From Candidatus Doudnabacteria bacterium (GTDB lineage: Bacteria; Patescibacteriota; Doudnabacteria; UBA920; O2-02-FULL-48-8), in assembly GCA_037200925.1 (NCBI GenBank), contig JBBCGO010000001.1, positions 447,698 to 511,697 on the forward strand: a DNA stretch of 64,000 bases, read 5' to 3'. The translations under genes were made by a program, and so were the position numbers. The notes beneath the pieces were generated by a model. The model was not told where the DNA came from and did no database searches. It saw nothing but the letters and a program-made list of their open reading frames with translations. Shown piece after piece: positions 1 through 38,567 of the stretch. Within the stretch, counting starts at the first letter, position 1, and each line of letters begins with the position of its first letter.

Positions 1-1118
1 ATAAAATCCAAGACCTGCTTATCAATCACGTCCGCTTTCACAATCGGTTGTTTGCAACTCTTATTCTCTTTCCTAAATTTACAACCATAGGCCAAATACT
101 CGCCGTTCTTCCACTTGTAATATTGGGCATACATCTTTGGCAGCATTCTGGCGTTAGGGTCATTCTCCTTGCCCTTAAGCTCTTTATAGCTGTAGTAGCA
201 ATATACCAACCCTTGCAGTAAATAAAATCTATGTTGAGCAACTGGCCGCCCAAAAGTATTCCTGCGGCCAGCTATGGCATCCTGCACCTTATCAAACAAC
301 TTTTGCGAAATTATAGCTGGGTGAATACCTTTTATCGTCGGGTAATTTTTCTTCCGAGAAAATACCATACCAAGGTAAACTTTATTGCTTAGGATGTCTT
401 TAATAGTGCTATAAGTATAGGGTCGGCCAGATTTAGTCCGTGCCTTTGCTTTATTCATTTCAACGGCTACATCCGCATACGAATACCGGCCGGTCGCATA
501 TAATAAATATATTTTCTTTACGTTCTTTGCTCCGAGAGGATCAATCCGCCATTCTGGATCATAAATCGGCCGTCCTTTTTCTTTATCAAAGCCGATTTTC
601 TTTTTCGTGTATCCCGCTGGCGGATTGCCAGTCTGTTTGCCTTGTGTGCGTTTCTCCATCAAAGAGTTCCTGACCCAAAAGCTGATCTGTCTTGAAGTGT
701 GCTCATCAAATAATTCGTTAATCCCCTCGTTTAGAAAAGAACTCGGATCATTCCAGTCATTACCAAAGTTCTGGGTTACTGATGTTACATCAATACCCAG
801 TTTCTTCCTAAGCAATTCTTTGTAATGCCTGGCTTCTTTGACATTGCGAGCAAACCGAGAGGTGTGATAAACCAAGATGACTTCAAACTTGTGTAGCATC
901 GCATCCGTAATCATCCTTTGGAAATCGTCTCGCTTCAAAGCATCCGTGCCTGACACCAAATCCTTATACCACTCCACGATTTGAATGTTGTGTTCACTGG
1001 CGAACTTCTCAATTGATCGCCTTTGGTTATCAGGCGAAAAACCCTTATCCTGCTCCTCAGTACTTTCGCGGATATAAGCAATGCCTGTTTTCAGTTTTAG
1101 AGAGGGTTTTTTAATCAT
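1..1118 (-). CDS. Large serine recombinase. The N-terminus is complete (ATG at 1118-1116); the C-terminus runs off the window start.
   Basis: Manual minus-strand translation from 1118 gives MIKKPSLKLKNGIAYIRESTEEQDKGFSPDNQRRSIEKFASEHNIQ..., i.e. the resolvase catalytic motif (IAYIRxSTEEQ with the Ser nucleophile). A downstream region is recombinase/zinc-ribbon-like (YLLQGLVYC...C). The ORF track lists no stop-bounded ORF for this frame, consistent with the ORF running off the edge. Confidence 0.8.
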   Translation of the reverse strand, partial: MIKKPSLKLKTGIAYIRESTEEQDKGFSPDNQRRSIEKFASEHNIQIVEWYKDLVSGTDALKRDDFQRMITDAMLHKFEVILVYHTSRFARNVKEARHYKELLRKKLGIDVTSVTQNFGNDWNDPSSFLNEGINELFDEHTSRQISFWVRNSLMEKRTQGKQTGNPPAGYTKKKIGFDKEKGRPIYDPEWRIDPLGAKNVKKIYLLYATGRYSYADVAVEMNKAKARTKSGRPYTYSTIKDILSNKVYLGMVFSRKKNYPTIKGIHPAIISQKLFDKVQDAIAGRRNTFGRPVAQHRFYLLQGLVYCYYSYKELKGKENDPNARMLPKMYAQYYKWKNGEYLAYGCKFRKENKSCKQPIVKADVIDKQVLDF

Positions 1119-1129
1119 AACTAATTAAC

Positions 1130-2182
1130 TTACAGTTTTCTGTATCGGGTAGCACTACCCATACCCAACCGTTCTATTTTCTTAAATTTCAATAACTTGT
1201 CCAATACTTGATTAACTGTCGGCCGAGCGACTTTAGCTTTTTTGCTAATCTCTTGGGGAGTGGCCTCGTCTACAGTTTGCAGATACTTCCAGACCAATAT
1301 CTGCTTGGGTGAGAGTAGTTTCTCTATGTCTTCTTTATTGAGCAAGCCAATGGCTATTTTTGACTGCTTAAGCAGTATGTCAAAGAAGAACTCCAACCAC
1401 GGGGTTATATCTTCTCTCTTGCTCTTAGCTGTCTGTTGGCTCTTTCTTAAGGCAATATAGTATTCTGATTTATTATCCTCGATCAATTTTTCGTGGGAGA
1501 CATAAGGCATATAGACAAACCCTTCTTTCAAAAGAAGTAAATTTGTAAGGACACGGGAAAGACGGCCGTTGCCATCTTGGAACGGATGAATGTTCAGAAA
1601 TTCTACAAGGAAGTTGCCGATCACAAGTAGCGGATTATATTTCTTAATTTTGAGCTGGGTTTCTGTCCAATCTACTAATTCTTGCATTTCTTTCGGTGTT
1701 AAGTATGCGGGAGTGGGATTAAATAAAGTTGCAACGAAATTACCTTGAGCATCCGTCATATCAACTCTATTCTCGCCTTTTTTATAATCGCCCTTATGAC
1801 CCTGATCTTTTTCGACATACTTAAGCAGCTCGTTATGCAAATGCTTAATTGAGCTTTCGGACAATTTTATTGTCTGCCAAGCATCAAAAACATTATTTAG
1901 CAGATCAAAGTATCCCTGCACTTCTTGTTTATCTCTCGACGCAAACTTCTTCATTCCCAAACCACGAATGAATTTCTCGACATCTTCATCAGTTAGTTTA
2001 GAGCCCTCAATACGGGTCGAGGCTCCTGTGGAGGTGATTAAAACCCATTTCTTAAGCCTGCCTAACAACTGTGGGCTCAATTGTGCCCCTGATGTCCAGC
2101 GACCCTTAAGATCGTCAATTTGGGCGATTTTAGCCCAAATAGCATCCGGTATGTTACTAAGGCGTTTATCGAAGTTTTTCAT
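1130..2182 (-). CDS. Fic/Doc family protein with a C-terminal winged-helix-like region
   Basis: Canonical Fic motif HPFQDGNGRLSR (HxFx[DE]GNGRxxR) in the 350-aa ORF. Confidence 0.85.
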   Translation of the reverse strand: MKNFDKRLSNIPDAIWAKIAQIDDLKGRWTSGAQLSPQLLGRLKKWVLITSTGASTRIEGSKLTDEDVEKFIRGLGMKKFASRDKQEVQGYFDLLNNVFDAWQTIKLSESSIKHLHNELLKYVEKDQGHKGDYKKGENRVDMTDAQGNFVATLFNPTPAYLTPKEMQELVDWTETQLKIKKYNPLLVIGNFLVEFLNIHPFQDGNGRLSRVLTNLLLLKEGFVYMPYVSHEKLIEDNKSEYYIALRKSQQTAKSKREDITPWLEFFFDILLKQSKIAIGLLNKEDIEKLLSPKQILVWKYLQTVDEATPQEISKKAKVARPTVNQVLDKLLKFKKIERLGMGSATRYRKL

Positions 2183-2414
2183 AGTTATTTAGCTAATATA
2201 ATGATATATATAAGATTATATACGATATATAAAATAAAGTCAAATTGTACTCCCGCTTGTAATGCTTGAGGAGTTCATCATTTTCGATTGTTAGATTTAT
2301 CATAATTTCAATTTTATTAATAGCTTGAATTTGAATTCTAAATAAAAACAGCCTTTCGGCCGCCATTTATTGCGAATCACGAAATTAAATATGTAATTCT
2401 AGCCTTTTCAGCAT

Positions 2415-3371
2415 TTAAGATAATTCGAACAATTGATTCGCTATCCCAAGTAGCTCGTCTTTCTTGGCTACATTATCAAACCATTTTTTAGGAATTCCGC
2501 CAATTCCGTAATATGCTCCGGCAAGTTGTCCGTATATTGCTCCCGTGGTATCAGCGTCATCCCCAAGATTGATTGCCTTGAGTACTCCGTCTTCAAAGAA
2601 TTCCGAGTTATAAAACGCCCACAAAGCCGCTTCCATAGATTTAACTACAAATCCACTCCCTTCTATAAAAGGCGGATCATGATGTTTGAAAGAACCACGG
2701 GCAATATTTTCTATTTCTGATGTGAGTTGATTATTTTTCCAGAAATCTGGAATCGGAGAATATAAATCAGACAATAATTCTTCTTTCGAAACCCCATTTA
2801 ATGCCCCGATAATAAGTCCGGTGTAATATTTGCAAGCATCAGAACATAACTGAGAGCCATGGGTAATTTTTGAGCTTAATCCAGCATTTTTTACTGCTTG
2901 CTCTGGATTACTTCTAAAATACAAAGGTATTGGAGCAAGTCGCATAAGACTTCCATTTCCGTCAGAATTTCGAGAAGAAATCGCCACATACGGATCGTCT
3001 CCATTTCGGTATGTCAGGAGCGCTCTAAGTATTGTTTGGCCGACACCAATAGCCTTTCCTGAGCTTGAACAGTATCCTGTTTCAAGCCATTTTTTATATT
3101 TTTCAATTTGATCAACAGGATCAAAAGATTTTTTCTCGATTAAACTGTTTGCAAGACATAATGCCATAGCAGTATCGTCAGACCAATGACCAGCGGGTAA
3201 ATCAAACCAATCAGAATCTCTAAAATCAGTTATAGGTTCAAATTCGCCAACTGCTTTAAATTCTGCGGGAACTCCGAGGGCATCGCCAATTGCTAAACCA
3301 AACAAGGAGCCATGATATTTTTCCAATAGCTCCTTTCGCACAAGAATTTTTTGTTTTGATTCGATTTCCAT
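2415..3371 (-). CDS. ADP-ribosylglycohydrolase family protein (DraG/ARH-like)
   Basis: Motifs GDALG, HWSDDT, GNGSLMR and DDADTTGAIYGQLAGAYYG are typical of the ADP-ribosylglycohydrolase fold. Confidence 0.85.
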   Translation of the reverse strand: MEIESKQKILVRKELLEKYHGSLFGLAIGDALGVPAEFKAVGEFEPITDFRDSDWFDLPAGHWSDDTAMALCLANSLIEKKSFDPVDQIEKYKKWLETGYCSSSGKAIGVGQTILRALLTYRNGDDPYVAISSRNSDGNGSLMRLAPIPLYFRSNPEQAVKNAGLSSKITHGSQLCSDACKYYTGLIIGALNGVSKEELLSDLYSPIPDFWKNNQLTSEIENIARGSFKHHDPPFIEGSGFVVKSMEAALWAFYNSEFFEDGVLKAINLGDDADTTGAIYGQLAGAYYGIGGIPKKWFDNVAKKDELLGIANQLFELS

Positions 3372-3372
3372 A

Positions 3373-4961
3373 TTATTTTAATTTAGAAAAAAACTTCCAA
3401 ATCGCAAACATACCATAAGTGTCTAGTTTACAATATTCCAACATCTGACTTTCCTTTTCTTTCGCCATCTCCCCAACTAATTCACCTTTAGTTATTTGTC
3501 GATAAGCCTCGATAGCATCGGTACCATTTTGTACACCAAGTGTTTCATAGGATAAATCTGAAGCCCCTGTTAGTTTGGCGACTATTGGCAAGACTTTTTT
3601 AATTGAGGCTCTGCCTTCAAATCCTGGATGTACGTAATGTTGATCCTCAACTATATCCATCAAATCGTATGTTCTTTCAACTACCTTAAGAAAAAAATCT
3701 TTATATTCTGGTAAAAAAATTGCAAGTTCGCGATTTCGTGTATTTTCGAATTTTTTAGACCACGAAATAACCGTTCCCTTATTACCGATATGTTCTCGTA
3801 AATTCTTCGCGATACGCTCAGAGGGCTCTCCATCTAAGATTAGACATTCGAAATGAGTAGGCTCTGAATTCTCGTCATTTAGAACATGTAACGAATATTG
3901 AAAAACAATTTGTTGGTAGGGACGATATCCGCTATACGGAGGGATGGCAGTTGGATATGTTTCATAGTCGAGAAAATAAAGAGGAAATACAAGCGAATCG
4001 AGTTCGGTCTTGATCGACTTAATATCAATCAATGGTTCTTGAGATTTATGAACCATGATTTGATTTAGTTTTCTTGGTTTACTAGGTTTTTCATTTTTTT
4101 TTGATTCTTTGGGCTTTAATCTATCGTCTATTGGCACATTGCCAATTTCCAGTATACCCTCATTAAGTAACTCCTCTAGATATCTCTTACTATTTCCAAT
4201 TCTATTTAAATCATGAACGCTGTATCTAGGTACGCTCGGGTTGATATAAGAAAACGCTGTGCAATGAGCACTGCGACCCCTATAGTAACAAGGGCATGGA
4301 ACCGAAGGCATTTTTTTACTTAATAAATAGTTTTGGGCCTGCTCCATTTCTTCTACGGCAATTGGTTTCAAGCGTTCTATCGCCTCGGTCTTATCCTCGA
4401 TGATGAAAAGTTGACCTGGTGTGAAATCTAGCTCGCCTTTTCTAATGTATGCTCGATTGAGACGGACAAGATATTTTTTATCCAATGGTACTCCACATGC
4501 TTCAAGAACATTCGCCTGGAAAGCAAGGTCATATTCGTATTGAAGTTCTCTTTTTTATTAACTCTCTTAGGTTTTCCCTCGTCTTCTTCATCATCCTCTT
4601 CGGTTGATGACATTTTTATTTCATATATTTCGTATTTCTGAATTGAATCGTTCCATTTCAGGACGTCGGCAGCAGCAACGTATCTATCAGTCGCAAAAAC
4701 AGCCTGATAAATTACAGGTGTTCGCTCCGTAATAAGTTTTTGAGTCAATTCTTGAGCACCTTCGCTCCGCCTCTCAACGAGATAACCCCCAGGAAACATT
4801 CCCCGTGCTAATTCTTCTACCTCATTGCCCATCACAGCTAACGATTTCTCGAAATCCGATACTTCAAACTTTGCATACTCTTTAGACTCATGTCTTTTTA
4901 CCCAAACGTTGTTTGGACACTCTCGGTAGAGAATAAAATCAGTTTTTGTAAGGAGTGCCAT
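3373..4961 (-). pseudogene. DUF2779/Cas4-like PD-(D/E)xK nuclease-like gene, split into two overlapping ORFs (4428..4961 and 3373..4485) by a +/-1 frameshift in an A6 run near 4549-4554
   Basis: The N-terminal ORF has a Cas4/RecB-like start (TDFILYRECPNNVW). The C-terminal ORF has FLDYETY (DUF2779-like). The frame upstream of the second ORF reads ...KRELQYEYDLAFQANVLEACGVPLDKKYLV, which is continuous with the first ORF after a 1-nt change in the aaaaaa tract. Confidence 0.55.
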
Positions 4962-4966
4962 AAATG

Positions 4967-7900
4967 TTAAGCGTTACGCGTGCCTTTGCAATAAGGAAAA
5001 CGAGAGCACCCATAAAACTTTCCTCTCCGGCTGTTTCTCAAGACCATACGTGAATTACAGCGAGGACATAACGAATCAGTTAGGACAGGCGCTGGTCTAG
5101 GTATGGATGTTGTTGTCAGGCGTGTACTGAGGTTTTTGCACGCATTGCAAAATCTCCCATAGCCAGTAATCAAATCAGCATCTTTGAAATCAATTAATGG
5201 CTTTACTTCTTTGCATCTTGGGCATTCCCTAATATCACCATTTTGGAGTCCTTCTATAGTGCCTTGTATATTTGCAAGAAGTGAGTTGGCATTCTCTGGA
5301 TTTTTAAGTAATCGCGCAATTCTATCATCAAGGCTCGCAATCGGGTTTTTCCCACTGTTGAACTTATTGATTCTTAAAAATTTATAGCCATAACTTTCTA
5401 ATACTTTCTGGCGGTATACGTCATCATTGGAGTAGTAGTGCTCATAGTTGAATTCGTTGACTTCATCTGCATCTTTGAAGTGTTCTAAGAAACCATCGTA
5501 CTCAATGATGATTTTGTGTTCCTTGTGTCGCTCATCGGTATAGATAAGATGAAAATCAACCTCGTATGCTGGATGAGTGTAGGTGGGGTCTAGTTGTTTT
5601 AGATATTTTCCTATTTCAAACTGTGGCATAAATTCAATTGAATCTTTGTGCTGTTTCCAAAATTTCGTTTGATAAAACCAATTTAGCACTTCTGGCTCTT
5701 TTTTAGAGTTTGGATCTGTCTCGGAAACGCCGTGCTCTTTTCGCGCTTCGTCCAACATATATTTATAGTGTCTTAACGCTTCTCCAGCAGAGCCGGTGAA
5801 GTCCTCCAGGGGCTTGCTCAATACGAAATGGACGCACTCTTTGGCACGACTAAAGCCCACATTCAAACGCTGCGCTTTTAGTTGCCCGTCCTCTTCAACA
5901 TCTACCTTGCTTAAATCCTTAATGAATACGCCCCAGAGCTTATCGCTGTGTGGAGAGGCTACCATTGAGTAGTAGATGATGTCGCGTTCTTCTCCCTGGC
6001 AGGTGTCGAACGTCATTATCTTGAGTTTCAGCTTGTCCTGGAAATAATCCCACTCTGGCATTTTGCCAATCATTTCTACCAGGAGCTTCTGCTGATTTGT
6101 GTGTGGTGTGATAATACCCACGCTCACGACTTTATCTTCATCCTTTAACCGTTTAAGTTCAGAGATGATAAACTCAACTTCTTTAACATTAGTGTTAGGA
6201 TAGCGTTCATCTGCTGTCGTGGTCTCAACATACGAAAATTTTATTACTTCGTCTATGGATTTCCCGCGAATCTTCATCACTTGCAAACTTTCCTGATAGA
6301 AATACTTGTTTGAATAGGAAATGATTTCTTTATAACCTCTAAAGTGTTTCAGCAATTGGATATTGTAGTTGCTGACGAACTCAAAGAACTCAAGAATAGA
6401 AGTCTTGATGTTGAATTTTTTGAGTCTTTCCAATTTTATTGGATCGGTGGAGACGTTAGCTCTAAAATTAGCATTCAATCCGTTCAGGTACTCACGGTTA
6501 GTATCTCCGCGCGCTTGTGCCGCTTTGATGTTACTAAATTGTTTTTTGTCTCCTAGAATCAGCACTTTCTTTGCCCGCAAGAGGGCAGGAAATGCTTGGG
6601 CAATGCTTACCTGTGAGGCTTCATCAATCACCACTAAATCAAATAATCCTGGCTCTAGTGGTATATACTCAGCGTAGTCCCTAATGCCTGCCAATATGCA
6701 CGGAAAAGCCTCTTTGAGCTTCTTAAACTCATCTCTCGGGAATTTCTGTTTATTCTTTATGATATTCTTTAATGTTTGGGCATCGTTGCGATTGTTTTCA
6801 CAAAAATCAATTAGCTGTCCATCGAGAAGGTATGTTACTTGAGTAGTAACCAAATCTTCAATTTGCCTCATACGAGCGGCGTAGTTCAACTCGAGAATGT
6901 TGGAAAAATCTTTGCTCACTTTTTGCTTTAGGTTCAAGTATCTAATCTGTTTATCAAATTCTAGTTCATCACCGTCCGTAATCGCGTTGCTTATCACTGT
7001 GGCGAACTGTTCGGTATTGATACCAATCTTTTTTGCTGTCTTCGGATATTTCTCAACAATCTCTTTGAGATACCCTACCTTCTCACTCAGAGCGACGATT
7101 TCTTGAACGCCCAGTATAATCGCCTCATCAGTAAGGAGCTTGTGAGCCATCGCGATGAAATCGTAGTCACCTACATTTTTTCCATTTATTTCGTCACCAA
7201 GTTTTTGAGCATAACTAAAAATCTCTTGTATGTCTTTAAGTTCCTGGAGTTGTTCGTGGGGATTGGAGATCATGCTGTGAATAAAGGTTTGCTTGAAACT
7301 AATATCCAATTCTTCTGCTCGTTTTTTACTAAACAGATATCCGACTGCCCAAAGTTTCAGCTTTGAATACTGCTCGATGAAATATTGGAGTTTCTCTAAA
7401 TCTTTTGAGTCAAACTGTGAGAACTTACTGATAGCGTCAATTTTATTATAAAATGTCGCCTTTACTTTCTGTATACTTTCAAGGGCCAGCATTAATAAAC
7501 GCAAGAAATTTTCGGAGTCATCTAGTGTTCGTATACTTTTAGGGGTTACCTCAAGAAGCTCAAAAAACTTCTGCGTGACATTAGAAGTGAAAACGTTTTT
7601 AATTTGCTGCAGTGAGCTTCGTAACTCTCCAAGTTCGATGGCCACTTCGTCTTGTGGAGCCAACTCTTCAAAATCGAAAAATAAAACTTTTTCACTAAAA
7701 TAAAGTTCCAAATCAAAAAATTCTTGGATTTCTTTGATGTTTATATTCTCATAAGCAACCATCTCCGCTTCCAAGTCTTCTTTTAGAGAATTTCCAGATT
7801 TGATAATGGTTTCTTCTATATTCTCATAGTCATTTTTTACTGCGCGATGATAAGTTTTTATTCTATCGATGGCACTTTGAGCGAGAATTGAATTATAAGT

Positions 7901-9526
7901 ATTGCCGGTTTTTCCAAGTCTTAAAATTGGGTTCTGAAAGTTTTCATCATTGCGAACCTTATTCATCGTCTGGGTAATTTTGTCTTCGACGACGTCCAGC
8001 GCTTCCTTTTTATCGGAAAGAACCAATACCGATTGGTTTTTCAAAATTGCATCGAAAATAATAGCGGTAATGGTATGACTTTTTCCCGTTCCTGGCGGCC
8101 CCGAAACTACTAAATAGTTGCAGCCTTCTTTATTAATTGCAGATAGGATTTGCCGCTGCTCGCTATTGAGTGGTATTGGACTTGGGTAGACAAGCTTATC
8201 TGCTGTTTCTGTACCGTCCCATTCACCCTCAACTTCCGGATTGAAAGGCTGAGGATTATTTCTAATAAAGTCGTCTATCAGTTTATTAAAAATTTCTGCA
8301 AGATTGCCACCTTCTAGGCTTAACATCTGGAGGATTTCTTCGTAGTCATTAACCAACGCTTCGTCCGACTTATCAAATAAACAGATGTAACTGCTGTTAG
8401 AAATACGCACAGACGCGCCACGGGCGATTGTAGATTCACCGCTTGAAAATTCCGACGTACCTTCAAGTCCAAAAAAATGAGACATTTCATTTAGAACATC
8501 GTTGATGATTTGAGGGAAATCATCTTTGTGTTGAGACAAATAGATAATGCGATCTGAAATAGTCTGTAAGCTGCCCGTGGTCCCTTTTTGGGTATTGTGC
8601 TCTTGAACTACGAACTCAAGAGCCTTTTTATTAATATATACCTGTGAATCGAAGTCGATACTTAAGGTGTCTCCTTCTCGTTTAGTTGAAAAAGGGATAT
8701 AGAAAATCGGGTACTTACTGTTATTGAAAGAAATATCTCCAAAGTAAAGATAAAATTCTTGCTTATCCAAAATGCTTTTGTTACGCTCCATCTCGAAAAG
8801 TTCCAAAAACAAATCAGCAACTTGGAGATTCTCAAAAAAGGAAGTGAGGTTGCCTTTTACGTCTTGTGGAATGAATACTGATTTGAGTTCTTTTGTGAGA
8901 TTAACCTTCTCTTGAGCAATAATAAGATTCAATACTTCTGAAATTTTGTTCTCCAACAACCGAAGTATGACTGCGGTCAACTCTTCTTCAATAAGATAAA
9001 TATTGTCTTCGTCGCCTAGGTTAAGATTTTGCAAGGGCTTCTCAACGCTTTCAACAAAAGGGTGCACCAGTGCACTACGAATAATCTTTGAGGCTTCTTC
9101 AAGAGAGTTAGTAAGAGCAACGTCGTACTCTTTTGCATATAAAGTGCCCGCCTTCTCTATTTCATCAGCGACTTTTTCAGTAATGCCAGCGATTTCTGTA
9201 TTACTGATTTTACCTATTTGGAGCTTGATTAAATCAAGTAAATTTTTAGGAAGGTTTGTTTTATAAACCCCCTTCTCAATTTTATTCAGAATGTCTTCAT
9301 CAAAACTTTTGCTAATAAGTTTTGATGTTAGCTTGCTGAAAGAAGGGTACTTTTGAAGATTCAAACCAATTAGTAAATTGTCATTGTTCCGAAACTCGAT
9401 AGCCCGACGAGGGAGCTTATGTTTATGGAAATCCGTCTCCAAGAAATCCATAAAATACTTAGCAACCTCTTTGATAAATAAGAGGCCATTTTGTTCGACT
9501 TTTTGAATTAATGTTGCTGGTTTCAT
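4967..9526 (-). CDS. Giant multidomain protein (1519 aa): N-terminal region of unknown function, SF1 (Upf1/DNA2-like) helicase core, DUF559/Vsr-like endonuclease domain, and two C-terminal topoisomerase-type C4 zinc ribbons
   Basis: Walker A VVSGPPGTGKSHT. Motif II VVIDEASQV. Motif VI-like VGFSRAKE. Vsr/DUF559-like IIIEYDGFLEH. CPRC...C..C twice, the second being CPRCNSRMVLRNSRRGKFYGCSRFPYC (zf-C4_Topoisom-like). Confidence 0.85.
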   Translation of the reverse strand: MKPATLIQKVEQNGLLFIKEVAKYFMDFLETDFHKHKLPRRAIEFRNNDNLLIGLNLQKYPSFSKLTSKLISKSFDEDILNKIEKGVYKTNLPKNLLDLIKLQIGKISNTEIAGITEKVADEIEKAGTLYAKEYDVALTNSLEEASKIIRSALVHPFVESVEKPLQNLNLGDEDNIYLIEEELTAVILRLLENKISEVLNLIIAQEKVNLTKELKSVFIPQDVKGNLTSFFENLQVADLFLELFEMERNKSILDKQEFYLYFGDISFNNSKYPIFYIPFSTKREGDTLSIDFDSQVYINKKALEFVVQEHNTQKGTTGSLQTISDRIIYLSQHKDDFPQIINDVLNEMSHFFGLEGTSEFSSGESTIARGASVRISNSSYICLFDKSDEALVNDYEEILQMLSLEGGNLAEIFNKLIDDFIRNNPQPFNPEVEGEWDGTETADKLVYPSPIPLNSEQRQILSAINKEGCNYLVVSGPPGTGKSHTITAIIFDAILKNQSVLVLSDKKEALDVVEDKITQTMNKVRNDENFQNPILRLGKTGNTYNSILAQSAIDRIKTYHRAVKNDYENIEETIIKSGNSLKEDLEAEMVAYENINIKEIQEFFDLELYFSEKVLFFDFEELAPQDEVAIELGELRSSLQQIKNVFTSNVTQKFFELLEVTPKSIRTLDDSENFLRLLMLALESIQKVKATFYNKIDAISKFSQFDSKDLEKLQYFIEQYSKLKLWAVGYLFSKKRAEELDISFKQTFIHSMISNPHEQLQELKDIQEIFSYAQKLGDEINGKNVGDYDFIAMAHKLLTDEAIILGVQEIVALSEKVGYLKEIVEKYPKTAKKIGINTEQFATVISNAITDGDELEFDKQIRYLNLKQKVSKDFSNILELNYAARMRQIEDLVTTQVTYLLDGQLIDFCENNRNDAQTLKNIIKNKQKFPRDEFKKLKEAFPCILAGIRDYAEYIPLEPGLFDLVVIDEASQVSIAQAFPALLRAKKVLILGDKKQFSNIKAAQARGDTNREYLNGLNANFRANVSTDPIKLERLKKFNIKTSILEFFEFVSNYNIQLLKHFRGYKEIISYSNKYFYQESLQVMKIRGKSIDEVIKFSYVETTTADERYPNTNVKEVEFIISELKRLKDEDKVVSVGIITPHTNQQKLLVEMIGKMPEWDYFQDKLKLKIMTFDTCQGEERDIIYYSMVASPHSDKLWGVFIKDLSKVDVEEDGQLKAQRLNVGFSRAKECVHFVLSKPLEDFTGSAGEALRHYKYMLDEARKEHGVSETDPNSKKEPEVLNWFYQTKFWKQHKDSIEFMPQFEIGKYLKQLDPTYTHPAYEVDFHLIYTDERHKEHKIIIEYDGFLEHFKDADEVNEFNYEHYYSNDDVYRQKVLESYGYKFLRINKFNSGKNPIASLDDRIARLLKNPENANSLLANIQGTIEGLQNGDIRECPRCKEVKPLIDFKDADLITGYGRFCNACKNLSTRLTTTSIPRPAPVLTDSLCPRCNSRMVLRNSRRGKFYGCSRFPYCKGTRNA

Positions 9527-9536
9527 TTTATTGGGA

Positions 9537-9716
9537 TTACTTGTTGCGAAGATTAGAGTTTCTTTTTAGGAACTCCTCAATCTCTATTTTATTAATACGC
9601 CAGTGCCCGACTTTCGTTGCCTCAAGCTTCTTACTCTGGATATAGCGAAAAACGGTCTTATAGCTAAGGCCCAGTTTCTTTGCCGTTTGTTCTATTGTTA
9701 GATAGTCTTTTGTCAT
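9537..9716 (-). CDS. Excisionase-type HTH DNA-binding protein (HTH_17 family), 59 aa, not in the ORF track because it is under 60 aa
   Basis: Manual translation gives MTKDYLTIEQTAKKLGLSYKTVFRYIQSKKLEATKVGHWRINKIEIEEFLKRNSNLRNK, matching the excisionase/MerR-like HTH_17 pattern (...KVGRxWRI...). The stop lies 10 nt upstream of the helicase start. Confidence 0.6.
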   Translation of the reverse strand: MTKDYLTIEQTAKKLGLSYKTVFRYIQSKKLEATKVGHWRINKIEIEEFLKRNSNLRNK

Positions 9717-9952
9717 AGTTAATTACTATACACCATCTGTCCAAAATTGTCAATAATTGTCCAATTTGTCCAGCAACCGGCCGTGATACTAATATTTGCT
9801 ATAAAAACCGTATTGAATTGAGACCGATATTTACTATGCCTTAGTGTCATTCCTGACAGCAGTATTTGCGTAATACTTAGGGCGGGTGGATTTGAGATGA
9901 ATTTATGATTTGGTTGCTTGTTACTGATAGAAGCGGATGATACTAATAATTG

Positions 9953-11098
9953 CTAAAATAAACTCTGTTGTTTCTGACTGGATTTTGGATTGATTCCAAA
10001 TTCTTGCAAGACAAAATTTAGGACTGCCCCGTCAGGAACATTCAGCTCTATCCCCCTAACCTCAATGTCCTTTATCTCTTTAAGGCGTCTGAAATAGGTG
10101 CTGCGAGAGCCAGTGGTTTGCTTAAGATGATTCTTTAGCCCTGCCCAACCTTCCAGCCTTAAAACTCCTACAGCTTGGTATAGCTGTGCCTTAAGTTTTC
10201 CGTCACTATAATTCTTTTCGATAAAATCCTTGACCTGTTGGTTAAGCTGCCTGTAATCATAATCCTTTGAAACAACCAAACCATTCAAGGGATGATTAAA
10301 TATCTGGTCAACTTCGTGCTTCAATAGATCATTGGCAATGTTATACTTGAAAACTTCTGCCAAGGTAAAATTCTTTTTTGACGGATAAAACTTAGATAGG
10401 AATTGTCTGACTGAAGTTACATTGTGCAGGGTCAATTCAAACCTAAGAATAGATTCCTTATTATCGGCCAGCTTTCTGTGAATTTCTTTTTCTTCTTTGG
10501 TAAAACCCTGATCCAGCAAACTCTGAATTTGGTCATAAACCACAAAATGCGACGACGTCCTATTGAAGTATTCAAGATGGGTTAACTGACCATTAGGATT
10601 AAATTTTGGTTCAAATGACGAACGAAATCGGTATTTAGAATGAGCTAAAATTGCCAAAGCTTCTTCGGTGGTGCCGAAGGCTTTCACGTTGAGGTTCTTA
10701 CAATAAGAGACCATCGTTACTACTCCGTCCCTAACACTATTTCGAGAAGCCGATACCTTGATTGAAGCTAAAAAACTTATGATTGAGTCAATCAGAACTT
10801 CAAGATCAGCTTCGGATATTTCATAATAATTCTGGCCGTATTTGAGTTTGGGCAAAGAAACCTCGAGGTATAAATAATTATTACCTCGATTAAAACTGCT
10901 TTGGTGTGTCCAGTATTTCATAATGTAAATGCCCTTGGCTTGCTGGGATTTACGAAATTGGTCGCTGGTATGAATTAACTTTTTAATTCTTTTCTTGCCG
11001 TTCTTATCGTTGTCAAAACTCCCCTTGGCATCCTGAAAATAAGGGTTGTTTTCAACCGAATGAAAATTTGAAATTCTGATTCTTACGCTATCAATCAT
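9953..11098 (-). CDS. Putative rolling-circle replication initiator (Rep_trans-like)
   Basis: HFVVYDQIQSLL...ILRFELTLHN resembles the Rep_trans core (catalytic YDK followed by RxExR). The N-terminus IDSVRIRISNF resembles IDxLRFTF. The call rests on these weak motifs plus context only. Confidence 0.45.
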   Translation of the reverse strand: MIDSVRIRISNFHSVENNPYFQDAKGSFDNDKNGKKRIKKLIHTSDQFRKSQQAKGIYIMKYWTHQSSFNRGNNYLYLEVSLPKLKYGQNYYEISEADLEVLIDSIISFLASIKVSASRNSVRDGVVTMVSYCKNLNVKAFGTTEEALAILAHSKYRFRSSFEPKFNPNGQLTHLEYFNRTSSHFVVYDQIQSLLDQGFTKEEKEIHRKLADNKESILRFELTLHNVTSVRQFLSKFYPSKKNFTLAEVFKYNIANDLLKHEVDQIFNHPLNGLVVSKDYDYRQLNQQVKDFIEKNYSDGKLKAQLYQAVGVLRLEGWAGLKNHLKQTTGSRSTYFRRLKEIKDIEVRGIELNVPDGAVLNFVLQEFGINPKSSQKQQSLF

Positions 11099-11121
11099 AG
11101 AGGGGGTTTTTTAAGAGATGG

Positions 11122-11304
11122 TTAAGTCGCCACCCTGGTCTTAGGAGAACCCCCTCTAAGAGTTGAACCTACAGCCAAGGTAGCAGCTTTACTATCCCTG
11201 TTCTTAATAACTTGTTTTTGCCAGTAATTAAAGAAGTATCTGGCTAAGGCGTCAGACACAGCTTCTTTGTTTTCTTTGGTTAGTTTTGTTCTATGATTTG
11301 TCAT
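11122..11304 (-). CDS. Hypothetical small protein
   Basis: 60-aa ORF, no recognisable motif. Confidence 0.3.
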   Translation of the reverse strand: MTNHRTKLTKENKEAVSDALARYFFNYWQKQVIKNRDSKAATLAVGSTLRGGSPKTRVAT

Positions 11305-11409
11305 TTTTTTGAAACAAAAACAGCCCCATCAGGGCTGTTCTCGTAAGAACAGATTCTAATGGGGCTTCGTAAAGCCTAAGCCACAAAGTCTCGTAAGGCC
11401 TTATGACAC

Positions 11410-12207
11410 TTATTTGTCGGGGATAATTTTCAAATCCTTTGGGATTTGGAGGGTCTCGCTACACTTGCTACATTTATGCGTTCCTCTCATAAAGTGAGAC
11501 ATATCTTCAATTTTGAAGATCAGGTTGCCGCATTTGCTACAAACACAATTCGCACTCTTAATTCTTGGTGAAATTATACCTTCTTTGATGTAGTTGTCAA
11601 CTTGTTTCTTAAATCTTTCCTCAACTTTAAGGGATATATCGTCGGCCAAATTATCAAATCTCTCTTTTAAAGCCATCACGGCCGACCTGACTTCAAATGC
11701 AGGCGATGGAGATGGGCTTGGTGAGTAAGATGGCGATGGTGAAAACGAAGGAGATAAACTGATCTGTTCGACGGTAAGACCAAAATCATATTTTTTATTC
11801 AGAGAAACAACACTACTAATAACTCGGTCACTGGCTTCGGTCAATCTTATTGTAGGTTCAGTTAAGGTGGCAAAATTAGTGGTCAACTGTTGTATTGATG
11901 ATACAACCTTTCCAGCCTGAATAAATACGGGAGAATGAGCTAAATCAGTCAACACTTTTGCGGAATTATTTAGGTCAATCAACATTCCATTATTAACTGT
12001 CATAACCGTGCCTAAATTTGCAAGATTCTGGGTTGCCAAGACTAGGCTAGGAGAATGGATCGTTTCTGCTAATGCCCTTGCCGACCTGGTTATATCAGTA
12101 ACAATTGCATCGTTGATCGAAGTTCCAATAATAGCAGAGACTGGTGCTGGTTTTTTCAAATCAACTTCGTCTTTTTTCTTGTTTTGAGGGGGTTTAGTGT
12201 CGGACAT
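11410..12207 (-). CDS. Hypothetical protein with an SP-repeat linker and a C-terminal Cys4 zinc ribbon
   Basis: SPSFSPSPSYSPSPSPSP repeat. CSKCGN...HKCSKCSETL at the C-terminus. A hairpin plus T-run terminator at 11305-11345 read on the minus strand. Confidence 0.5.
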   Translation of the reverse strand: MSDTKPPQNKKKDEVDLKKPAPVSAIIGTSINDAIVTDITRSARALAETIHSPSLVLATQNLANLGTVMTVNNGMLIDLNNSAKVLTDLAHSPVFIQAGKVVSSIQQLTTNFATLTEPTIRLTEASDRVISSVVSLNKKYDFGLTVEQISLSPSFSPSPSYSPSPSPSPAFEVRSAVMALKERFDNLADDISLKVEERFKKQVDNYIKEGIISPRIKSANCVCSKCGNLIFKIEDMSHFMRGTHKCSKCSETLQIPKDLKIIPDK

Positions 12208-12366
12208 TACTTAGAGGGGTTTATATGCATCAATATATTAACAAAAAACAGGCTTGCCGCCTATTTCAAATTTTGGAATCGCATAGTAAAGGATGTTAGA
12301 ACTCAAATATATACTACACAGAGTGCTTAAAACTACCCTAGAATATTTTAGGAGTTATAATTATTT

Positions 12367-12654
12367 TCAGTCCTCTAACCATTTATTTTTTTGAATGATC
12401 CCAATAAAATATGCGGTTGCGTGTGTTGCAAGTGTAAGTCCAGTCTTACTTAACCCGTCCCAATCGCCGATAGAAATAAAGTGATAAGCCATTATTATAG
12501 CCCAAAGCAATACTATCGCTGGTAAGACATAAATAACACAAATCAAAACATTATTTACTGCGTTTAATGCAGTTTGTTTCCGTCTATGACTTTGTGAAGC
12601 ATCATCAGCTTCCAAATCAGCCTCTGTTGCAACATTTTTGCCTTTCCTTTTCAT
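12367..12654 (-). CDS. Small membrane protein
   Basis: Two hydrophobic helices. Stop/start abuts the ImmA gene. Confidence 0.45.
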   Translation of the reverse strand: MKRKGKNVATEADLEADDASQSHRRKQTALNAVNNVLICVIYVLPAIVLLWAIIMAYHFISIGDWDGLSKTGLTLATHATAYFIGIIQKNKWLED

Positions 12655-12655
12655 A

Positions 12656-13168
12656 TTAGACTATGGTTTGCCCTAGTAAGAATCTTGCTCTCAATGTTGC
12701 CGCAGATTCTGAAACCTTAAATTGCTCTGCAACTTCCGGCAAACTAATAGCATTTTTCCAAACCCTTAAAAATAAGTCTTTAGGCATCAGTAAATCAGCC
12801 GCCATATTATTGGCTTCAATTTCGATCTTTTTTTCAGCGTCTGTTAACTCTCTGCCCTCTTCGCTATTAAGTGCCTTAACAGGTTGTTTAATATTATCAA
12901 TATGTTCATTATTTGTATCAAAAAGATGTTTATGTTGAATGAAATGAGCTATTTCGTGAGCAATTGTAAAACGCTTCCTTGTTAACGGGTGAGAAGTGTT
13001 AATGTAAATAACAAAGTTGTCGCCCTCTTTGCTCAAAGAACCAGCATAATTATCATCTAATTCGCTGGTTTCTACTACATATAGACCTAATTCTTTTGCC
13101 AAATCAACAATAGGCACAGGATTTTGCTGAGCATATTTTGCTAAGATTTGTTCGGTTTTTTGATCCAT
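12656..13168 (-). CDS. ImmA/IrrE family metallopeptidase (DUF955)
   Basis: HEIAHF (HExxH) at the expected position. Family typical of prophage/ICE regulation modules. Confidence 0.8.
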   Translation of the reverse strand: MDQKTEQILAKYAQQNPVPIVDLAKELGLYVVETSELDDNYAGSLSKEGDNFVIYINTSHPLTRKRFTIAHEIAHFIQHKHLFDTNNEHIDNIKQPVKALNSEEGRELTDAEKKIEIEANNMAADLLMPKDLFLRVWKNAISLPEVAEQFKVSESAATLRARFLLGQTIV

Positions 13169-13297
13169 ACTTTTTAGAAAATAATGCCTAATTCTATACT
13201 ACCACACCCTCTGGGTAAAGTCATTGGATAAAATGAGCCTTGCATTCTTCAATTGAAAACCTAAATTACCCAGCTTTAATTTATAGAAAATAAATTT

Positions 13298-13372
13298 TGG
13301 GGTGCCAGACGAGAATCGAACTCGCGTGACCGCTGCCACAGAGCGGCGTTCTACCATTGAACTACTGGCACC
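13298..13372 (-). tRNA. tRNA-His (anticodon GTG) with encoded G-1 and CCA
   Basis: Hand-folded cloverleaf: 8-bp acceptor including G-1:C73. Anticodon stem CCGCU/AGCGG with loop CUGUGGC. T-loop TTCGATT. 3' CCA encoded. Confidence 0.85.
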
Positions 13373-13450
13373 ATAACAATTTAATTACACTACTTGCTAC
13401 ACATCATAATGGCCACATCCTAACAGTTTAATTTGCTTCCACATTGGAAA

Positions 13451-13525
13451 GTCAGCGGCCGAGCGGAATCGGACCCACGTGACAGCTGCCACAGAGCTGC
13501 GTTCTACCATTGAACTACGGGCACC
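13451..13525 (-). pseudogene. Degenerate tRNA-His(GTG)-like copy. The 5' ~47 nt are near-identical to the intact tRNA-His. The 3' half is divergent with a poor T-arm and acceptor and no CCA.
   Basis: Alignment with 13298..13372: 3 substitutions in the 5' 47 nt versus about 9 in the 3' 25 nt. The T-stem pairs only 3/5. Confidence 0.5.
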
Positions 13526-13588
13526 TCGTCTCAGTTTGTAGACACTTCGCGATTTTGCTTCGCAAAATACGCTACGGTCTACACGCTG
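13526..13588 (-). promoter_or_regulatory. Conserved structured tRNA 5'-leader element, copy A (tRNA orientation is the minus strand)
   Basis: About 85-90% identical to copies at 19008..19081 and 38495..38567. Contains a TTTTGC-GAA-GCAAAA hairpin and an outer GYAGAC/GUCURC stem with compensatory changes. Confidence 0.6.
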
Positions 13589-13651
13589 CTCCTCTCAAAA
13601 AATTTGTTCTCGGCCTTCGGCCTGCGACTCAAATTTTTTGTGGTTTAAAAG

Positions 13652-13963
13652 CTACTTACTTGCGACCATGACCGCGAACACGACCACTGTCAGTGCAAAC
13701 ATCCAACCCACAGTATACCCAAAAAACTTCAGCGCTTCTTTTTTCTGTCCATCAAAATACATCAGCACCGGCCGGCCCAATACTAACGCGCTGGTGATCG
13801 CGGCGGATAGCACAAACAACATCAGGACTAAGATAGGAGTAAACGCAGTATCTTTCTGTCCGAACCAAACAGACCCATGGTTCATGATAGATGCGACGAG
13901 AGTGACATACAGCAGCACCAAAACCGCATGACCCAAACTGTGAGCAACTGGATTGTCTTTCAT
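13652..13963 (-). CDS. Small membrane protein (hypothetical)
   Basis: 103-aa ORF with three hydrophobic segments. Preferred over the antisense ORF 13638..13931, which has an implausible composition. Confidence 0.45.
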   Translation of the reverse strand: MKDNPVAHSLGHAVLVLLYVTLVASIMNHGSVWFGQKDTAFTPILVLMLFVLSAAITSALVLGRPVLMYFDGQKKEALKFFGYTVGWMFALTVVVFAVMVASK

Positions 13964-13977
13964 ATTTTATCCTTTCT

Positions 13978-14052
13978 TGGTGCCCCTGGCTGGAATCGAA
14001 CCAACATCAAGGCCTTAGAAGAGCCTTGCTTTATCCATTAAGCTACAGGGGC
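13978..14052 (-). tRNA. tRNA-Arg (anticodon TCT)
   Basis: Hand-folded: acceptor GCCCCUG/CAGGGGC. Anticodon stem AGGCU/GGCCU with loop CUUCUAA. T-loop TTCGATT. CCA encoded. Confidence 0.8.
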
Positions 14053-19007: not shown

Positions 19008-19081
19008 TTGAGAGGAGCAGCATGCAGACCGTAGCACTTTTTGCGAAGCAAAAATGCGAAGTGTCTGCCAGTCTGCGACGA
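19008..19081 (+). promoter_or_regulatory. Conserved structured tRNA 5'-leader element, copy B
   Basis: ttgagaggagcagcatgcagaccgtagcactttttgcgaagcaaaaatgcgaagtgtctgc followed by ...ctgcgacga, directly abutting tRNA-Lys. Confidence 0.6.
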
Positions 19082-20982: not shown

Positions 20983-21652
20983 CAGCTTCCTAAATTAGTT
21001 TTAAGATTGCGGATCGCCCCGCTGGCCGTTTCGGTATAGGTTCCGCTGGATCCTACCCCGGCCTTTTTAAATATGGTCAAATTGATCTTGACCAGTTTGA
21101 CGGCTGTGACATTCAGCGGCTGGACCAAAGGATTTTCAACCACTCCGGAATATGTGCCGTCATAATAATAGAAAATCGGATTTGCGCCGTTAGCCACATC
21201 TTTCTGTACCAAATTCACAGTTTCACCGCCAAGATTATAGAGCAAAGGATTTCCGGTAGGCTTGGTGACTCCTTTATACAAAGCACCGGCTTGGAGGAAA
21301 TACCGGATCCGGTTGACGCTGCCTGCCGCATTTGGAGGAAATACCGGATCCGGTTGACGCTGCCTGCCGCATTGGTATAAAAGATCAGCTGTTGAGCTGT
21401 CGCTGATTCCAGCGCGTATCCTCCGGTGTCTGAAGTTGTGGCATCGCGCAATTCCTGGATCAGCGTAAAAGCTACGCGGCGGGCGCTGTCATTATTGGCA
21501 AGCAAACTTCCTTGCAGCGAGCTGTTCACAAGCACAGAGGAAACCAAGGCTACTATCCCGTAAGCGATGATGGAAAAAATTGCAACGGAAATCATCACTT
21601 CTATCAGCGTGAATCCCTTTTCTTGTTCTCTGTTGGATGTTATCTGTTTCAT
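20982..21652 (-). pseudogene. Type IV minor pilin gene (prepilin N-terminus KGFTLIEVMISVAIF), split into ORFs 21215..21652 and 20982..21281 by a 41-bp tandem duplication
   Basis: Deleting one 41-nt unit puts the two ORFs into the same frame (21652-41=21611, same residue mod 3 as 21281). Confidence 0.6.
21291..21372. repeat. Perfect 41-bp tandem direct duplication (2 copies: 21291-21331 and 21332-21372)
   Basis: ttggaggaaataccggatccggttgacgctgcctgccgcat appears twice, head to tail. Confidence 0.95.
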
Positions 21653-38494: not shown

Positions 38495-38567
38495 TCGTCT
38501 CAGCCGGCAGACGCTTCGCGATTTTGCTTTGCAAAATGCGCTACGGTCTGCATGCTGCTCCTCTCAA
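38495..38567 (-). promoter_or_regulatory. Conserved structured tRNA 5'-leader element, copy C
   Basis: The minus-strand reading ttgagaggagcagcatgcagaccgtagcgcattttgcaaagcaaaatcgcgaagcgtctgccggctgagacga abuts the tRNA-Pro 5' end. Confidence 0.6.

What the first reader, a model, noticed from the sequence alone, without database searches (positions are those of the whole stretch)
13298..13525. Tandem tRNA-His pair in which the upstream copy is chimeric
Both have anticodon GTG and nearly identical 5' halves. The upstream copy (relative to transcription) has about 9 substitutions in its last 25 nt, a T-stem pairing 3/5 and no CCA, yet it is the copy preceded by the conserved leader. The intact copy is preceded by unrelated AT-rich sequence. 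This pattern fits a recombination junction inside the tRNA, i.e. an attachment site, rather than simple tandem duplication.
Basis: seen in the sequence. Interest (0 to 1): 0.55.

Follow-up and report, generated by a model that had tools for sequence, protein, structure and literature searches.

The report
Serine-integrase island splitting tRNA-His, carrying a spare
The odd upstream tRNA-His is the left junction of a 13.9-kb mobile island that a large serine integrase inserted into the host's tRNA-His gene, breaking it, while the intact downstream tRNA-His is a spare copy carried by the island.

Summary
Both tRNA-His genes exist. Copy A scores 38.5 Rfam bits and copy B 63.9.

Three related Candidatus Doudnabacteria genomes each have one intact tRNA-His. 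Copy A matches it at 61/61 bases, from G-1 to C62, and then at only 6/14. The missing native 3' end (CCCATCGGGCACCCCA, 16/16) lies 13,928 bp downstream, 462 nt beyond the window start. It sits inside the last ~20 codons of a 546-aa large serine recombinase (LSR) gene.

The two junctions share only the dinucleotide CC (tRNA positions 61-62), which is the signature of serine-recombinase crossover. Between them lies a 38% GC island in a ~49% GC host. It carries defence-type cargo and, 92 nt inside attL, the intact tRNA-His B.

The LSR belongs to a family of at least 200 homologs; named members are Patescibacteria. In seven of the eight other loci examined its 3' end is fused to tRNA-His at the same position, in either orientation (core CC or GG). 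One scaffold shows attL, attP and attR together, with an element tRNA-His beside attP.

Inferred, not shown: A is dead, B replaces it, and the element is still active. This is a new variant of a known kind.

The parts
13453..13525 (-). tRNA-His copy A, which is attL: a chimera of host tRNA-His (G-1 to C62) and the P' arm of the element's attP
   Evidence: ARAGORN. Rfam 38.5 bits with non-canonical pairs in the T and acceptor stems. 61/61 then 6/14 identity to the native tRNA-His of L004. No cloverleaf fold.
13465..13525 (-). Host-derived part of A (B arm of attB plus the core)
   Evidence: 61/61 identical to the single tRNA-His of the Doudnabacteria relatives L004 and L005.
13465..13466 (-). 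Crossover dinucleotide CC (tRNA positions 61-62). It is the only sequence shared in register by attL and attR.
   Evidence: The partner copy is at L003 14774-14775, which is 462-463 nt before window position 1.
13373..13464 (-). P' arm of attP plus spacer. In the excised circle it would encode the last 23 codons of the recombinase, with a stop at 13397-13399.
   Evidence: Dyad partner of the P arm, 15/24 matches with GGAAAGT/ACTTTCC and GAGC/GCTC. Translation of the reconstructed attP form gives 549 aa. The equivalent P' was seen joined to the LSR 3' end in L011.
13298..13372 (-). tRNA-His copy B: an intact, element-borne tRNA-His with CCA. Its T-arm reads CT where attB has the CC core.
   Evidence: 63.9 bits. 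Cloverleaf fold, z = -2.6. Lies inside the attL-attR interval. Differs from the host gene at 9/75 positions, with compensatory changes at 6-67, 28-42 and in the T-stem. L011 has an element tRNA-His in the same place.
1..13464 (-). The part of the 13,928-bp integrative element that lies in the window; the element runs 463 nt past window position 1
   Evidence: GC about 38% against about 49% in the host. Bounded by attL and attR.
1..1118 (-). 5' 1,118 nt of the large serine recombinase gene (546 aa; the ORF leaves the window)
   Evidence: Full gene at L003 13194-14834. Pfam Resolvase 86.9, Recombinase 65.6 and Zn_ribbon_recom 26.1 bits, all above the curated cut-offs. R17 and S19 are invariant in a 30-member alignment.
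12656..13168 (-). Cargo: ImmA/IrrE (M78) metallopeptidase, CapP-like
   Evidence: Pfam PF06114. PADLOC capP 1.4e-29.
9537..9716 (-). 59-aa HTH_17 protein, excisionase-like; a candidate directionality factor or regulator
   Evidence: Pfam HTH_17 53.4 bits. phrog_66 'excisionase and transcriptional regulator' 3.6e-09. An HTH_17 gene also sits next to the LSR in L016 and L018.
4967..9526 (-). Cargo: 1519-aa SF1 helicase (AAA_11/AAA_12) with a topoisomerase-type zinc ribbon, Mokosh-like
1130..4311 (-). Cargo: DUF2779 protein, ADP-ribosylglycohydrolase and Fic (SoFic-like). The Fic-LSR gene pair is conserved in L011 and L012.
13526..13597 (-). Host-type conserved tRNA leader directly 5' of copy A
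   Evidence: The same ~72-nt leader precedes tRNA-Lys (19010-19081) and tRNA-Pro (38495-38566).
13652..14052 (-). Host flank: 103-aa membrane protein gene and tRNA-Arg(TCT), syntenic with relative L004

Best explanation
A 13,928-bp integrative element has inserted into the tRNA-His gene of a Candidatus Doudnabacteria genome. Its 546-aa large serine recombinase (LSR) recombined attP with an attB that is the T-arm of the tRNA. The crossover is at the dinucleotide C61-C62.

Serine recombinases need only a 2-bp match, so the element's P' arm does not rebuild the gene. Copy A is therefore attL: the host's 5' 61 bases followed by foreign sequence. The native 3' end was displaced to attR, 13.9 kb away.

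The element carries its own complete tRNA-His (copy B) 92 nt inside attL, downstream of the host's leader. B most likely supplies the cell's tRNA-His. B reads CT where attB has CC, so it should not itself be a target.

attP lies inside the 3' end of the LSR gene. The last ~20 codons are host-encoded when the element is integrated, and P'-encoded (23 codons) when it is excised.

Shown: the junctions, the 2-bp core, the reconstructed attB, the LSR domains, and the family-wide association with tRNA-His. Inferred: A is non-functional, B is the working replacement transcribed from the host promoter, and the element can still excise.
For: Relatives have one intact tRNA-His.

A is 61/61 identical to it and then 6/14. 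L003 14774-14789 is 16/16 identical to it from C61 to A76 and is preceded by unrelated sequence (13/59). The overlap is CC only. The reconstructed attB is 75/75 identical to the L004/L005 gene. The 16-mer occurs once in L003 with 0 mismatches.

The LSR has Resolvase, Recombinase and Zn-ribbon domains, all above the curated cut-offs.

No tyrosine integrase is among the element's called genes.

GC is 38% in the element against 49% in the host.

The att sites have dyad symmetry.

Family evidence: five LSR homologs examined (L011, L013, L014/L015, L016; 52-67% identity) show P-arm|CC|tRNA-His 3' end. Two more (L010, L012) show P-arm|GG| followed by the reverse complement of the tRNA-His 5' part.

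L011 shows attL, an attP-form junction and attR in one scaffold, with an element tRNA-His after attP.

Roughly 100 of the 120 best homologs end in Q-x-P-x-x-[T/A]-[P/L/H/Q]. That is the translation of N71-C72-C73-CCA of tRNA-His.

Rfam scores are A 38.5, B 63.9 and native 60.3-61 bits.
Against: No experiment or read-level data exist for this genome, so current activity is unproven.

Only two elements (the window and L011) could be seen at the attL side. The claim that the spare tRNA is a family trait therefore rests on n = 2.

The rest of the 964-kb genome could not be scanned for a further tRNA-His gene.

A still passes Rfam's tRNA threshold.

No sigma-70-like promoter was found for B in the spacer, so its expression is inferred.

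Flanks downstream of attR are not syntenic with L004.

One homolog (L018) has its LSR 3' end fused to a ChlI/ComM-like gene rather than to tRNA-His.
Confidence: 0.88

Rival explanations
1. Simple tandem duplication of tRNA-His, followed by mutational decay of the upstream copy.
For: Two full-length tRNA-His-like genes lie 81 nt apart with nearly identical 5' halves.
Against: A is 61/61 identical to the relatives' gene and then changes abruptly to 6/14. Decay would be scattered.

The exact missing 16 nt lie 13.9 kb away.

B differs from the native gene by compensatory pairs, so it is a diverged orthologue and not a recent copy.

Relatives have a single gene.
Confidence: 0.02
2. Classical tRNA-targeting island: a tyrosine integrase using a long identical core, with A as a degraded attL.
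For: tRNA genes are the textbook targets of tyrosine integrases (PMC4383910).
Against: No Phage_integrase-domain gene lies between attL and attR.

attL and attR share only 2 bp.

The only recombinase is an LSR, and its own 3' end forms the P arm in eight loci examined here.
Confidence: 0.02
3. Metagenome mis-assembly: the island and copy B were joined to the host contig through the shared tRNA-His sequence.
For: The source is a MAG. A Logan contig from another run (L002) ends 87 nt upstream of A. Several related contigs break inside their elements.
Against: A chimeric join through tRNA homology would not produce a precise P'|CC|B split, nor the complementary junction 13.9 kb away inside an ORF that stays open.

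The same architecture recurs in independent assemblies from ENA, JGI, NCBI and Logan.
Confidence: 0.03
4. Integration happened as described, but copy A is still a usable tRNA-His, so B is redundant cargo rather than a needed replacement.
For: A scores 38.5 bits, above Rfam's threshold of 29. P' matches 6/14 of the native 3' end. A CCA-adding enzyme could add the missing CCA (general knowledge).
Against: C73 is replaced by U. From established knowledge, G-1:C73 is the main bacterial HisRS identity element.

There are two T-stem mismatches and a C4xC69 mismatch.

A does not fold as a cloverleaf, z = +0.41.

The chimeric copies in L010 and L012 score equally low, 38.7 and 40.7 bits.

An element tRNA-His is kept in both elements whose attL side could be seen.
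Confidence: 0.08

Closest known systems
Phage and ICE large serine integrases (phiC31, Bxb1, TP901-1, A118, SPbeta SprA)
   Same: Resolvase, Recombinase and Zn-ribbon architecture. Short, imperfectly palindromic att sites. A 2-bp non-palindromic core that alone sets orientation: CC against GG subfamilies here, as in the rule of Ghosh et al. 2003, which is cited in PMC12884075. The target gene is disrupted without being rebuilt.
   Different: Only remote sequence similarity: the best PDB hits are catalytic domains at E about 5e-08. The target is a tRNA gene rather than a protein-coding gene. attP lies inside the integrase ORF. The element brings a replacement for the gene it breaks. No phage genes are present.
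Dehalococcoides ssrA-specific genomic islands (DsiB, a CcrB-like serine recombinase; PMC3146451)
   Same: A serine recombinase integrates a ~12-kb cargo island in the T-loop region of a single-copy tRNA-like gene. The islands are low-GC and mobilizable.
   Different: Those islands carry a 20-bp direct repeat that rebuilds the ssrA 3' end. They encode two recombinases (DsiA and DsiB) and carry no spare gene. Here there is a 2-bp overlap, no rebuilding, one LSR and a complete spare tRNA. Homology between the two recombinases was not tested.
Classical tRNA-targeting genomic islands and prophages (tyrosine integrases; Islander/TIGER; PMC4383910)
   Same: A tRNA gene is the target. A displaced tRNA 3' fragment marks the far end of the island. 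Gene function is preserved after insertion.
   Different: Those restore the gene through an identical tDNA fragment in attP, catalysed by a tyrosine integrase. Here function is preserved by a separate whole gene. PMC4383910 states that serine-family integrases were not known to target tRNA genes.
SSV1-type archaeal integrases, and integration-dependent immunity of mycobacteriophages (attP inside a gene; PMC8371274, PMC8092301)
   Same: attP lies within a coding sequence of the element, so integration changes the encoded protein.
   Different: SSV-type tyrosine integrase genes are split and inactivated. In mycobacteriophages it is the repressor whose C-terminal tag is removed. Here only the last ~20 codons of a serine recombinase are exchanged, and the ORF stays open in both states. 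Any regulatory role is untested.

Membership tests
Large serine recombinase (serine integrase) integration system | N-terminal resolvase catalytic domain with the catalytic serine | tested here: met
   PF00239 86.9 bits against a cut-off of 23.3. The motif YIRESTEEQ, with R17 and S19, is invariant across 30 homologs.
Large serine recombinase (serine integrase) integration system | C-terminal Recombinase domain and zinc-ribbon domain | tested here: met
   PF07508 65.6 bits and PF13408 26.1 bits, both above their cut-offs.
Large serine recombinase (serine integrase) integration system | Crossover at a 2-bp central dinucleotide, with no extended attP/attB identity | tested here: met
   attL and attR overlap the native gene by exactly CC. 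The same position is used in 7 other loci.
Large serine recombinase (serine integrase) integration system | Short att sites with imperfect dyad symmetry about the core | tested here: met
   attP 15/24 (GGAAAGT...GAGC CC GCTC...ACTTTCC) and attB 10/16 (CCGAT..ATCGG).
Large serine recombinase (serine integrase) integration system | Orientation set by the central dinucleotide | tested here: met
   Homologs with core CC on the LSR sense strand are co-oriented with the tRNA. Those with GG (L010, L012) are inverted. This is correlative, not experimental.
Large serine recombinase (serine integrase) integration system | Demonstrated recombination activity, and a cognate directionality factor | not testable with these tools
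   Only a candidate was found, the 59-aa HTH_17 excisionase-like protein. An attP-form junction in the L011 scaffold suggests excision in a related element.
Classical tyrosine-integrase tRNA island (Islander type) | Tyrosine integrase gene within the island | tested here: not met
   No Phage_integrase hit among the island genes.
Classical tyrosine-integrase tRNA island (Islander type) | The island's attP carries a tDNA fragment that regenerates the target gene | tested here: not met
   P' matches only 6/14 of the native 3' end. A scores 38.5 bits against 60.3 for the native gene and does not fold as a cloverleaf.
Classical tyrosine-integrase tRNA island (Islander type) | A displaced tDNA fragment marks the far end of the island | tested here: met
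   A 16/16 native 3' end at L003 14774-14789.
Tandem tRNA gene duplication | Both copies descend from the resident gene, and relatives may share the pair | tested here: not met
   Relatives carry one copy. B differs from the resident gene at 9/75 positions with compensatory changes.
Prophage | Virion structural and packaging genes | tested here: not met
   None were found by Pfam or PHROGs among the island genes that were scanned. The LSR family is absent from IMG/VR apart from one 28%-identity hit.

The most novel reading that the evidence does not exclude
The LSR family is a specialised tRNA-His 'hostage-taking' system found in many Patescibacteria. Each element destroys the host's (probably only) tRNA-His gene. 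It substitutes its own copy, whose T-arm core is altered so that the integrase cannot attack it.

Any imprecise loss of the island would then be lethal, and only LSR-mediated precise excision would restore the host gene. The exchange of the integrase's C-terminal ~20 residues on integration could additionally act as a built-in sensor of the integrated versus excised state that biases directionality.
Probability: 0.3. Interest if true: 0.8.

Novelty: new variant of a known kind. Interest (0 to 1): 0.62.

Why it matters
It documents a serine integrase that uses a tRNA gene as attB. An authoritative survey (PMC4383910) said this was not known for the serine family.

It also shows a different answer to the cost of tRNA insertion: bring a whole spare gene instead of rebuilding the 3' end.

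It defines attB, attP, attL and attR to the base for a large recombinase family of at least 200 homologs. The hosts are Patescibacteria (CPR), a group with almost no genetic tools. The elements carry defence systems and, in relatives, diversity-generating retroelements.

The natural CC/GG orientation flip is a field example of the central-dinucleotide rule.

There are practical consequences. The C-termini of these recombinases in protein databases are partly translated tRNA genes. The chimeric attL copies will also be miscounted as tRNA genes.

The design (an integrase, a conserved tRNA landing site and a rescue tRNA) could be copied for genome engineering.

Tried and rejected
Exact-sequence look-ups of my own ORF calls for Fic, ARH and the 177-aa protein found nothing. 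For the DUF2779 gene the cause was a different start codon: the called product worked and gave L003.

Downstream synteny with L004 was sought to prove a host flank, but it is not conserved.

The LSR protein, an LSR alignment, the exact B sequence and the predicted attP junction were each scanned against IMG/VR viral contigs. There was nothing closer than 28% identity. The element is therefore not a recognised virus, and no excised copy of this exact element was found.

The metagenome scan with the LSR returned only distant relatives, 22-29% identity.

P0066 was chosen as a possible attP-form (excised) copy because its tail lacks the tRNA motif. Instead its LSR end is fused to a ChlI/ComM-like gene.

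The attL sides of L013-L016 lie more than 10 kb from the LSR and could not be reached. L010 and L012 break inside the element.

Tandem duplication, a tyrosine-integrase island and a prophage were considered and rejected (see the rival explanations and membership tests).

Literature searches found no description of an LSR targeting tRNA-His, and none of these elements in CPR bacteria.

Full report
**1. The observation**

On the minus strand, ARAGORN calls two tRNA-His(GTG) genes: A at 13453-13525 and B at 13298-13371. Rfam's tRNA model scores A at 38.5 bits and B at 63.9; the gathering score is 29.

- B has an 8-bp acceptor helix including G-1:C73, a canonical TTCGATT T-loop and an encoded CCA.
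- A has two T-stem mismatches, a C4xC69 mismatch, T73 and no CCA.
- Folded alone, A does not form a cloverleaf (z = +0.41). B and the relatives' gene do (z = -2.6 and -2.1).
- A and B are 54/61 identical up to position 62.

A ~72-nt hairpin-forming sequence abuts tRNA-His A, tRNA-Lys and tRNA-Pro: 3 matches against 0 expected. It does not precede B.

**2. Surroundings**

GC is about 38% from window position 1 to about 13300, and about 49% beyond. The low-GC block lies downstream of B in the direction of transcription. In order, it encodes:

- an ImmA/M78 (CapP-like) peptidase;
- three ORFs of unknown function;
- an HTH_17 excisionase-like protein;
- a 1519-aa SF1 helicase (Mokosh-like);
- a DUF2779 protein;
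- an ADP-ribosylglycohydrolase;
- a Fic (SoFic-like) protein;
- an ORF that starts at window 1118 and runs off the window.

The window is 100% identical to NCBI GCA_037975565.1 contig JBBCBH010000057.1, a Candidatus Doudnabacteria MAG. Locus L003 extends past window position 1. It shows that the last ORF is a 546-aa large serine recombinase (LSR) with Resolvase, Recombinase and Zn-ribbon domains, all above Pfam's cut-offs. No tyrosine integrase and no phage structural genes were found in the island.

**3. Which 3' half is ancestral**

A scan of one genome per species with A's positions 8-53 found three Doudnabacteria MAGs (L004-L006). Each has a single intact tRNA-His scoring 60.3-61 bits. L004 also shares the upstream 103-aa gene and tRNA-Arg(TCT).

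- Against this native gene, A is 61/61 identical from G-1 to C62 and then 6/14.
- The 16 nt at L003 14774-14789 (CCCATCGGGCACCCCA) are 16/16 identical to the native C61-A76. They are preceded by unrelated sequence (13/59).
- The two junctions overlap the native gene by exactly two bases, C61-C62.
- Joining A's host part to the displaced end gives a sequence 75/75 identical to the L004/L005 gene.
- The 16-mer occurs once in L003 with no mismatch.

So A is attL. attR lies 13,928 bp downstream, 462 nt outside the window. B sits inside the element.

**4. Mechanism**

A 2-bp overlap with no extended identity is the hallmark of serine-recombinase crossover. Both sites have the expected imperfect dyad symmetry:

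- attB: CCGAT-T-CC-C-ATCGG
- reconstructed attP: GGAAAGT..GAGC-CC-GCTC..ACTTTCC (15/24)

attR lies inside the LSR ORF, so the last ~20 codons (..APSGTPTKDISKSGIGLSYS) are host DNA. Rejoining P to P' keeps the frame open for 23 codons (..RSAADFPMWKQIKLLGCGHYDV). The stop falls at window 13397-13399, 25 nt before B.

In the circular form the gene order would therefore be LSR, attP (within its 3' end), tRNA-His B, then cargo. After integration, B lies 92 nt behind the broken host gene and its leader. No separate sigma-70-like promoter was detected in the spacer, so co-transcription from the host promoter is inferred.

B reads C61-T62 where attB has CC, and it differs at three further positions in each half-site. 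From the known requirement for matching central dinucleotides, it should not be a substrate. This is inference.

**5. The family**

The LSR has at least 200 homologs at E <= 1e-20, and the 120 best listed are 35-68% identical to it. Those that carry a source name are Patescibacteria MAGs. I read the context of eight other loci.

- **Same orientation.** In L011, L013, L014/L015 and L016 the LSR 3' end reads ..(t)caagc|CC| followed by a tRNA-His 3' end.
- **Inverted orientation.** In L010 and L012 it reads ..caagc|GG| followed by the reverse complement of a tRNA-His 5' part. The resulting chimeric tRNAs score 38.7 and 40.7 bits. The element is inverted there, as the central-dinucleotide rule predicts.
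- **All three junctions in one scaffold.** Scaffold L011 contains attL, an attP-form junction and attR. The attP-form junction is 55 nt of LSR 3' end joined to the same P' as in attL. An intact element tRNA-His (60 bits) lies about 80 nt after P'. The 55-nt overlaps look like de Bruijn graph edges, which suggests that integrated and excised (or tandem) forms coexisted in that sample.
- **The exception.** In L018 the LSR end is fused to a ChlI/ComM-like gene.

At the protein level, roughly 100 of the 120 best homologs end in Q-x-P-x-x-[T/A]-[P/L/H/Q]. This is the in-frame translation of N71-C72-C73-CCA, and C73 is the tRNA-His discriminator base. Six to nine homologs end in antisense T-loop translations such as ESDP or DSNP.

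Cargo in related elements includes restriction-modification systems, Fic proteins and diversity-generating retroelements.

**6. Comparison with what is known**

The system works like the phiC31/Bxb1-type serine integrases and meets every sequence-testable membership criterion. Activity and a directionality factor could not be tested.

It differs in four ways:

- the target is a tRNA gene;
- the gene is not regenerated;
- the element carries a whole spare tRNA;
- attP is embedded in the integrase ORF.

The Islander paper states that serine-family integrases were not known to target tRNA genes (PMC4383910). The nearest precedent is the Dehalococcoides ssrA islands, where a CcrB-like serine recombinase inserts in the tmRNA T-loop. 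Those rebuild the gene with a 20-bp repeat (PMC3146451).

Having attP inside a gene recalls SSV-type integrases and the integration-dependent immunity of mycobacteriophages (PMC8371274, PMC8092301). No paper on an LSR targeting tRNA-His in CPR bacteria was found among the searchable papers.

**7. Verdict**

It is refined to a serine-integrase element that breaks tRNA-His and supplies a spare.

I rate it a new variant of a known kind, with moderately high interest.

The main open points are:

- whether A is truly dead and B essential;
- whether the spare tRNA is general in the family (n = 2 so far);
- whether the tail exchange has a regulatory role.

Noticed in passing
window 13526-13597 (-), 19010-19081 (+), 38495-38566 (-): A ~72-nt conserved leader (TTGAGAGGAGCAGCRTGYAGACCGTAGC...GCGAAGYGTCTRC...GAGACGA) directly abuts the 5' end of tRNA-His A, tRNA-Lys and tRNA-Pro. 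It forms a long hairpin with a compensatory T-A/C-G change between copies. It has no Rfam match and is absent upstream of tRNA-His in relative L004. It could be a promoter or processing leader, or a small repeat element.
   Followed up: partly
window 13472 (tRNA position 55 of copy A); L004 6363-6436, L005 1431-1504, L006 838-911, L010 7409-7479, L012 3350-3422: The native tRNA-His of these Doudnabacteria-type hosts has the T-loop TCCGATT. That puts C at position 55, where U (pseudouridine 55) is almost universal. The element-borne copy B, and the host and element tRNA-His in L011, have the canonical TTCGA.
   Followed up: no
L005 about 1270-1504 (-): Downstream of the intact tRNA-His there is a ~72-nt direct repeat (tRNA positions ~37-76 plus 33 nt of flank). 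It brackets a 49-nt GC-rich palindromic insert. The flanks of this tRNA also carry an inverted ~20-nt motif (TATAAAAATGAWATG.TTT). It looks like a scar of another insertion at the same gene.
   Followed up: no
window 21291-21372: A perfect 41-nt tandem duplication lies inside the 145-aa prepilin-like (N_methyl) gene at 21215-21652. Its length is not a multiple of three, so it could be a frameshifting variant, phase variation or an assembly artefact.
   Followed up: no
L010 1194-2591 and 4023-4140; L011 4991-6748; L018 2087-3499: Related LSR/tRNA-His elements carry diversity-generating retroelement genes (RVT_1 and bAvd). L010 also has a LOOT RNA (RF03000, 83 bits). At least some DGRs in these Patescibacteria-type contigs therefore ride on these integrative elements.
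   Followed up: no
L018 6770-6830: In this homolog the LSR 3' end is fused to the 3' end of a convergent ChlI/ComM-like gene, not to tRNA-His. The neighbouring host genes (dksA-like, signal peptidase II, ChlI) occur about 6 kb from the tRNA-His site in L010, in the opposite orientation. This suggests a secondary inversion or deletion at the att site.
   Followed up: partly
L003 14776-14834 and the C-termini of P0001-P0120: Gene callers annotate these recombinases with C-terminal tails that are translated host tRNA-His DNA, sense or antisense. The database proteins are therefore host-element chimeras, and their last ~20 residues differ with the host.
   Followed up: yes
L014 7960-9872: Directly upstream of the LSR in L014/L015 there is an intein-containing ORF (Intein_splicing, LAGLIDADG) and a separate 163-aa Recombinase-domain fragment. 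This may be a second, degraded or split recombinase.
   Followed up: no
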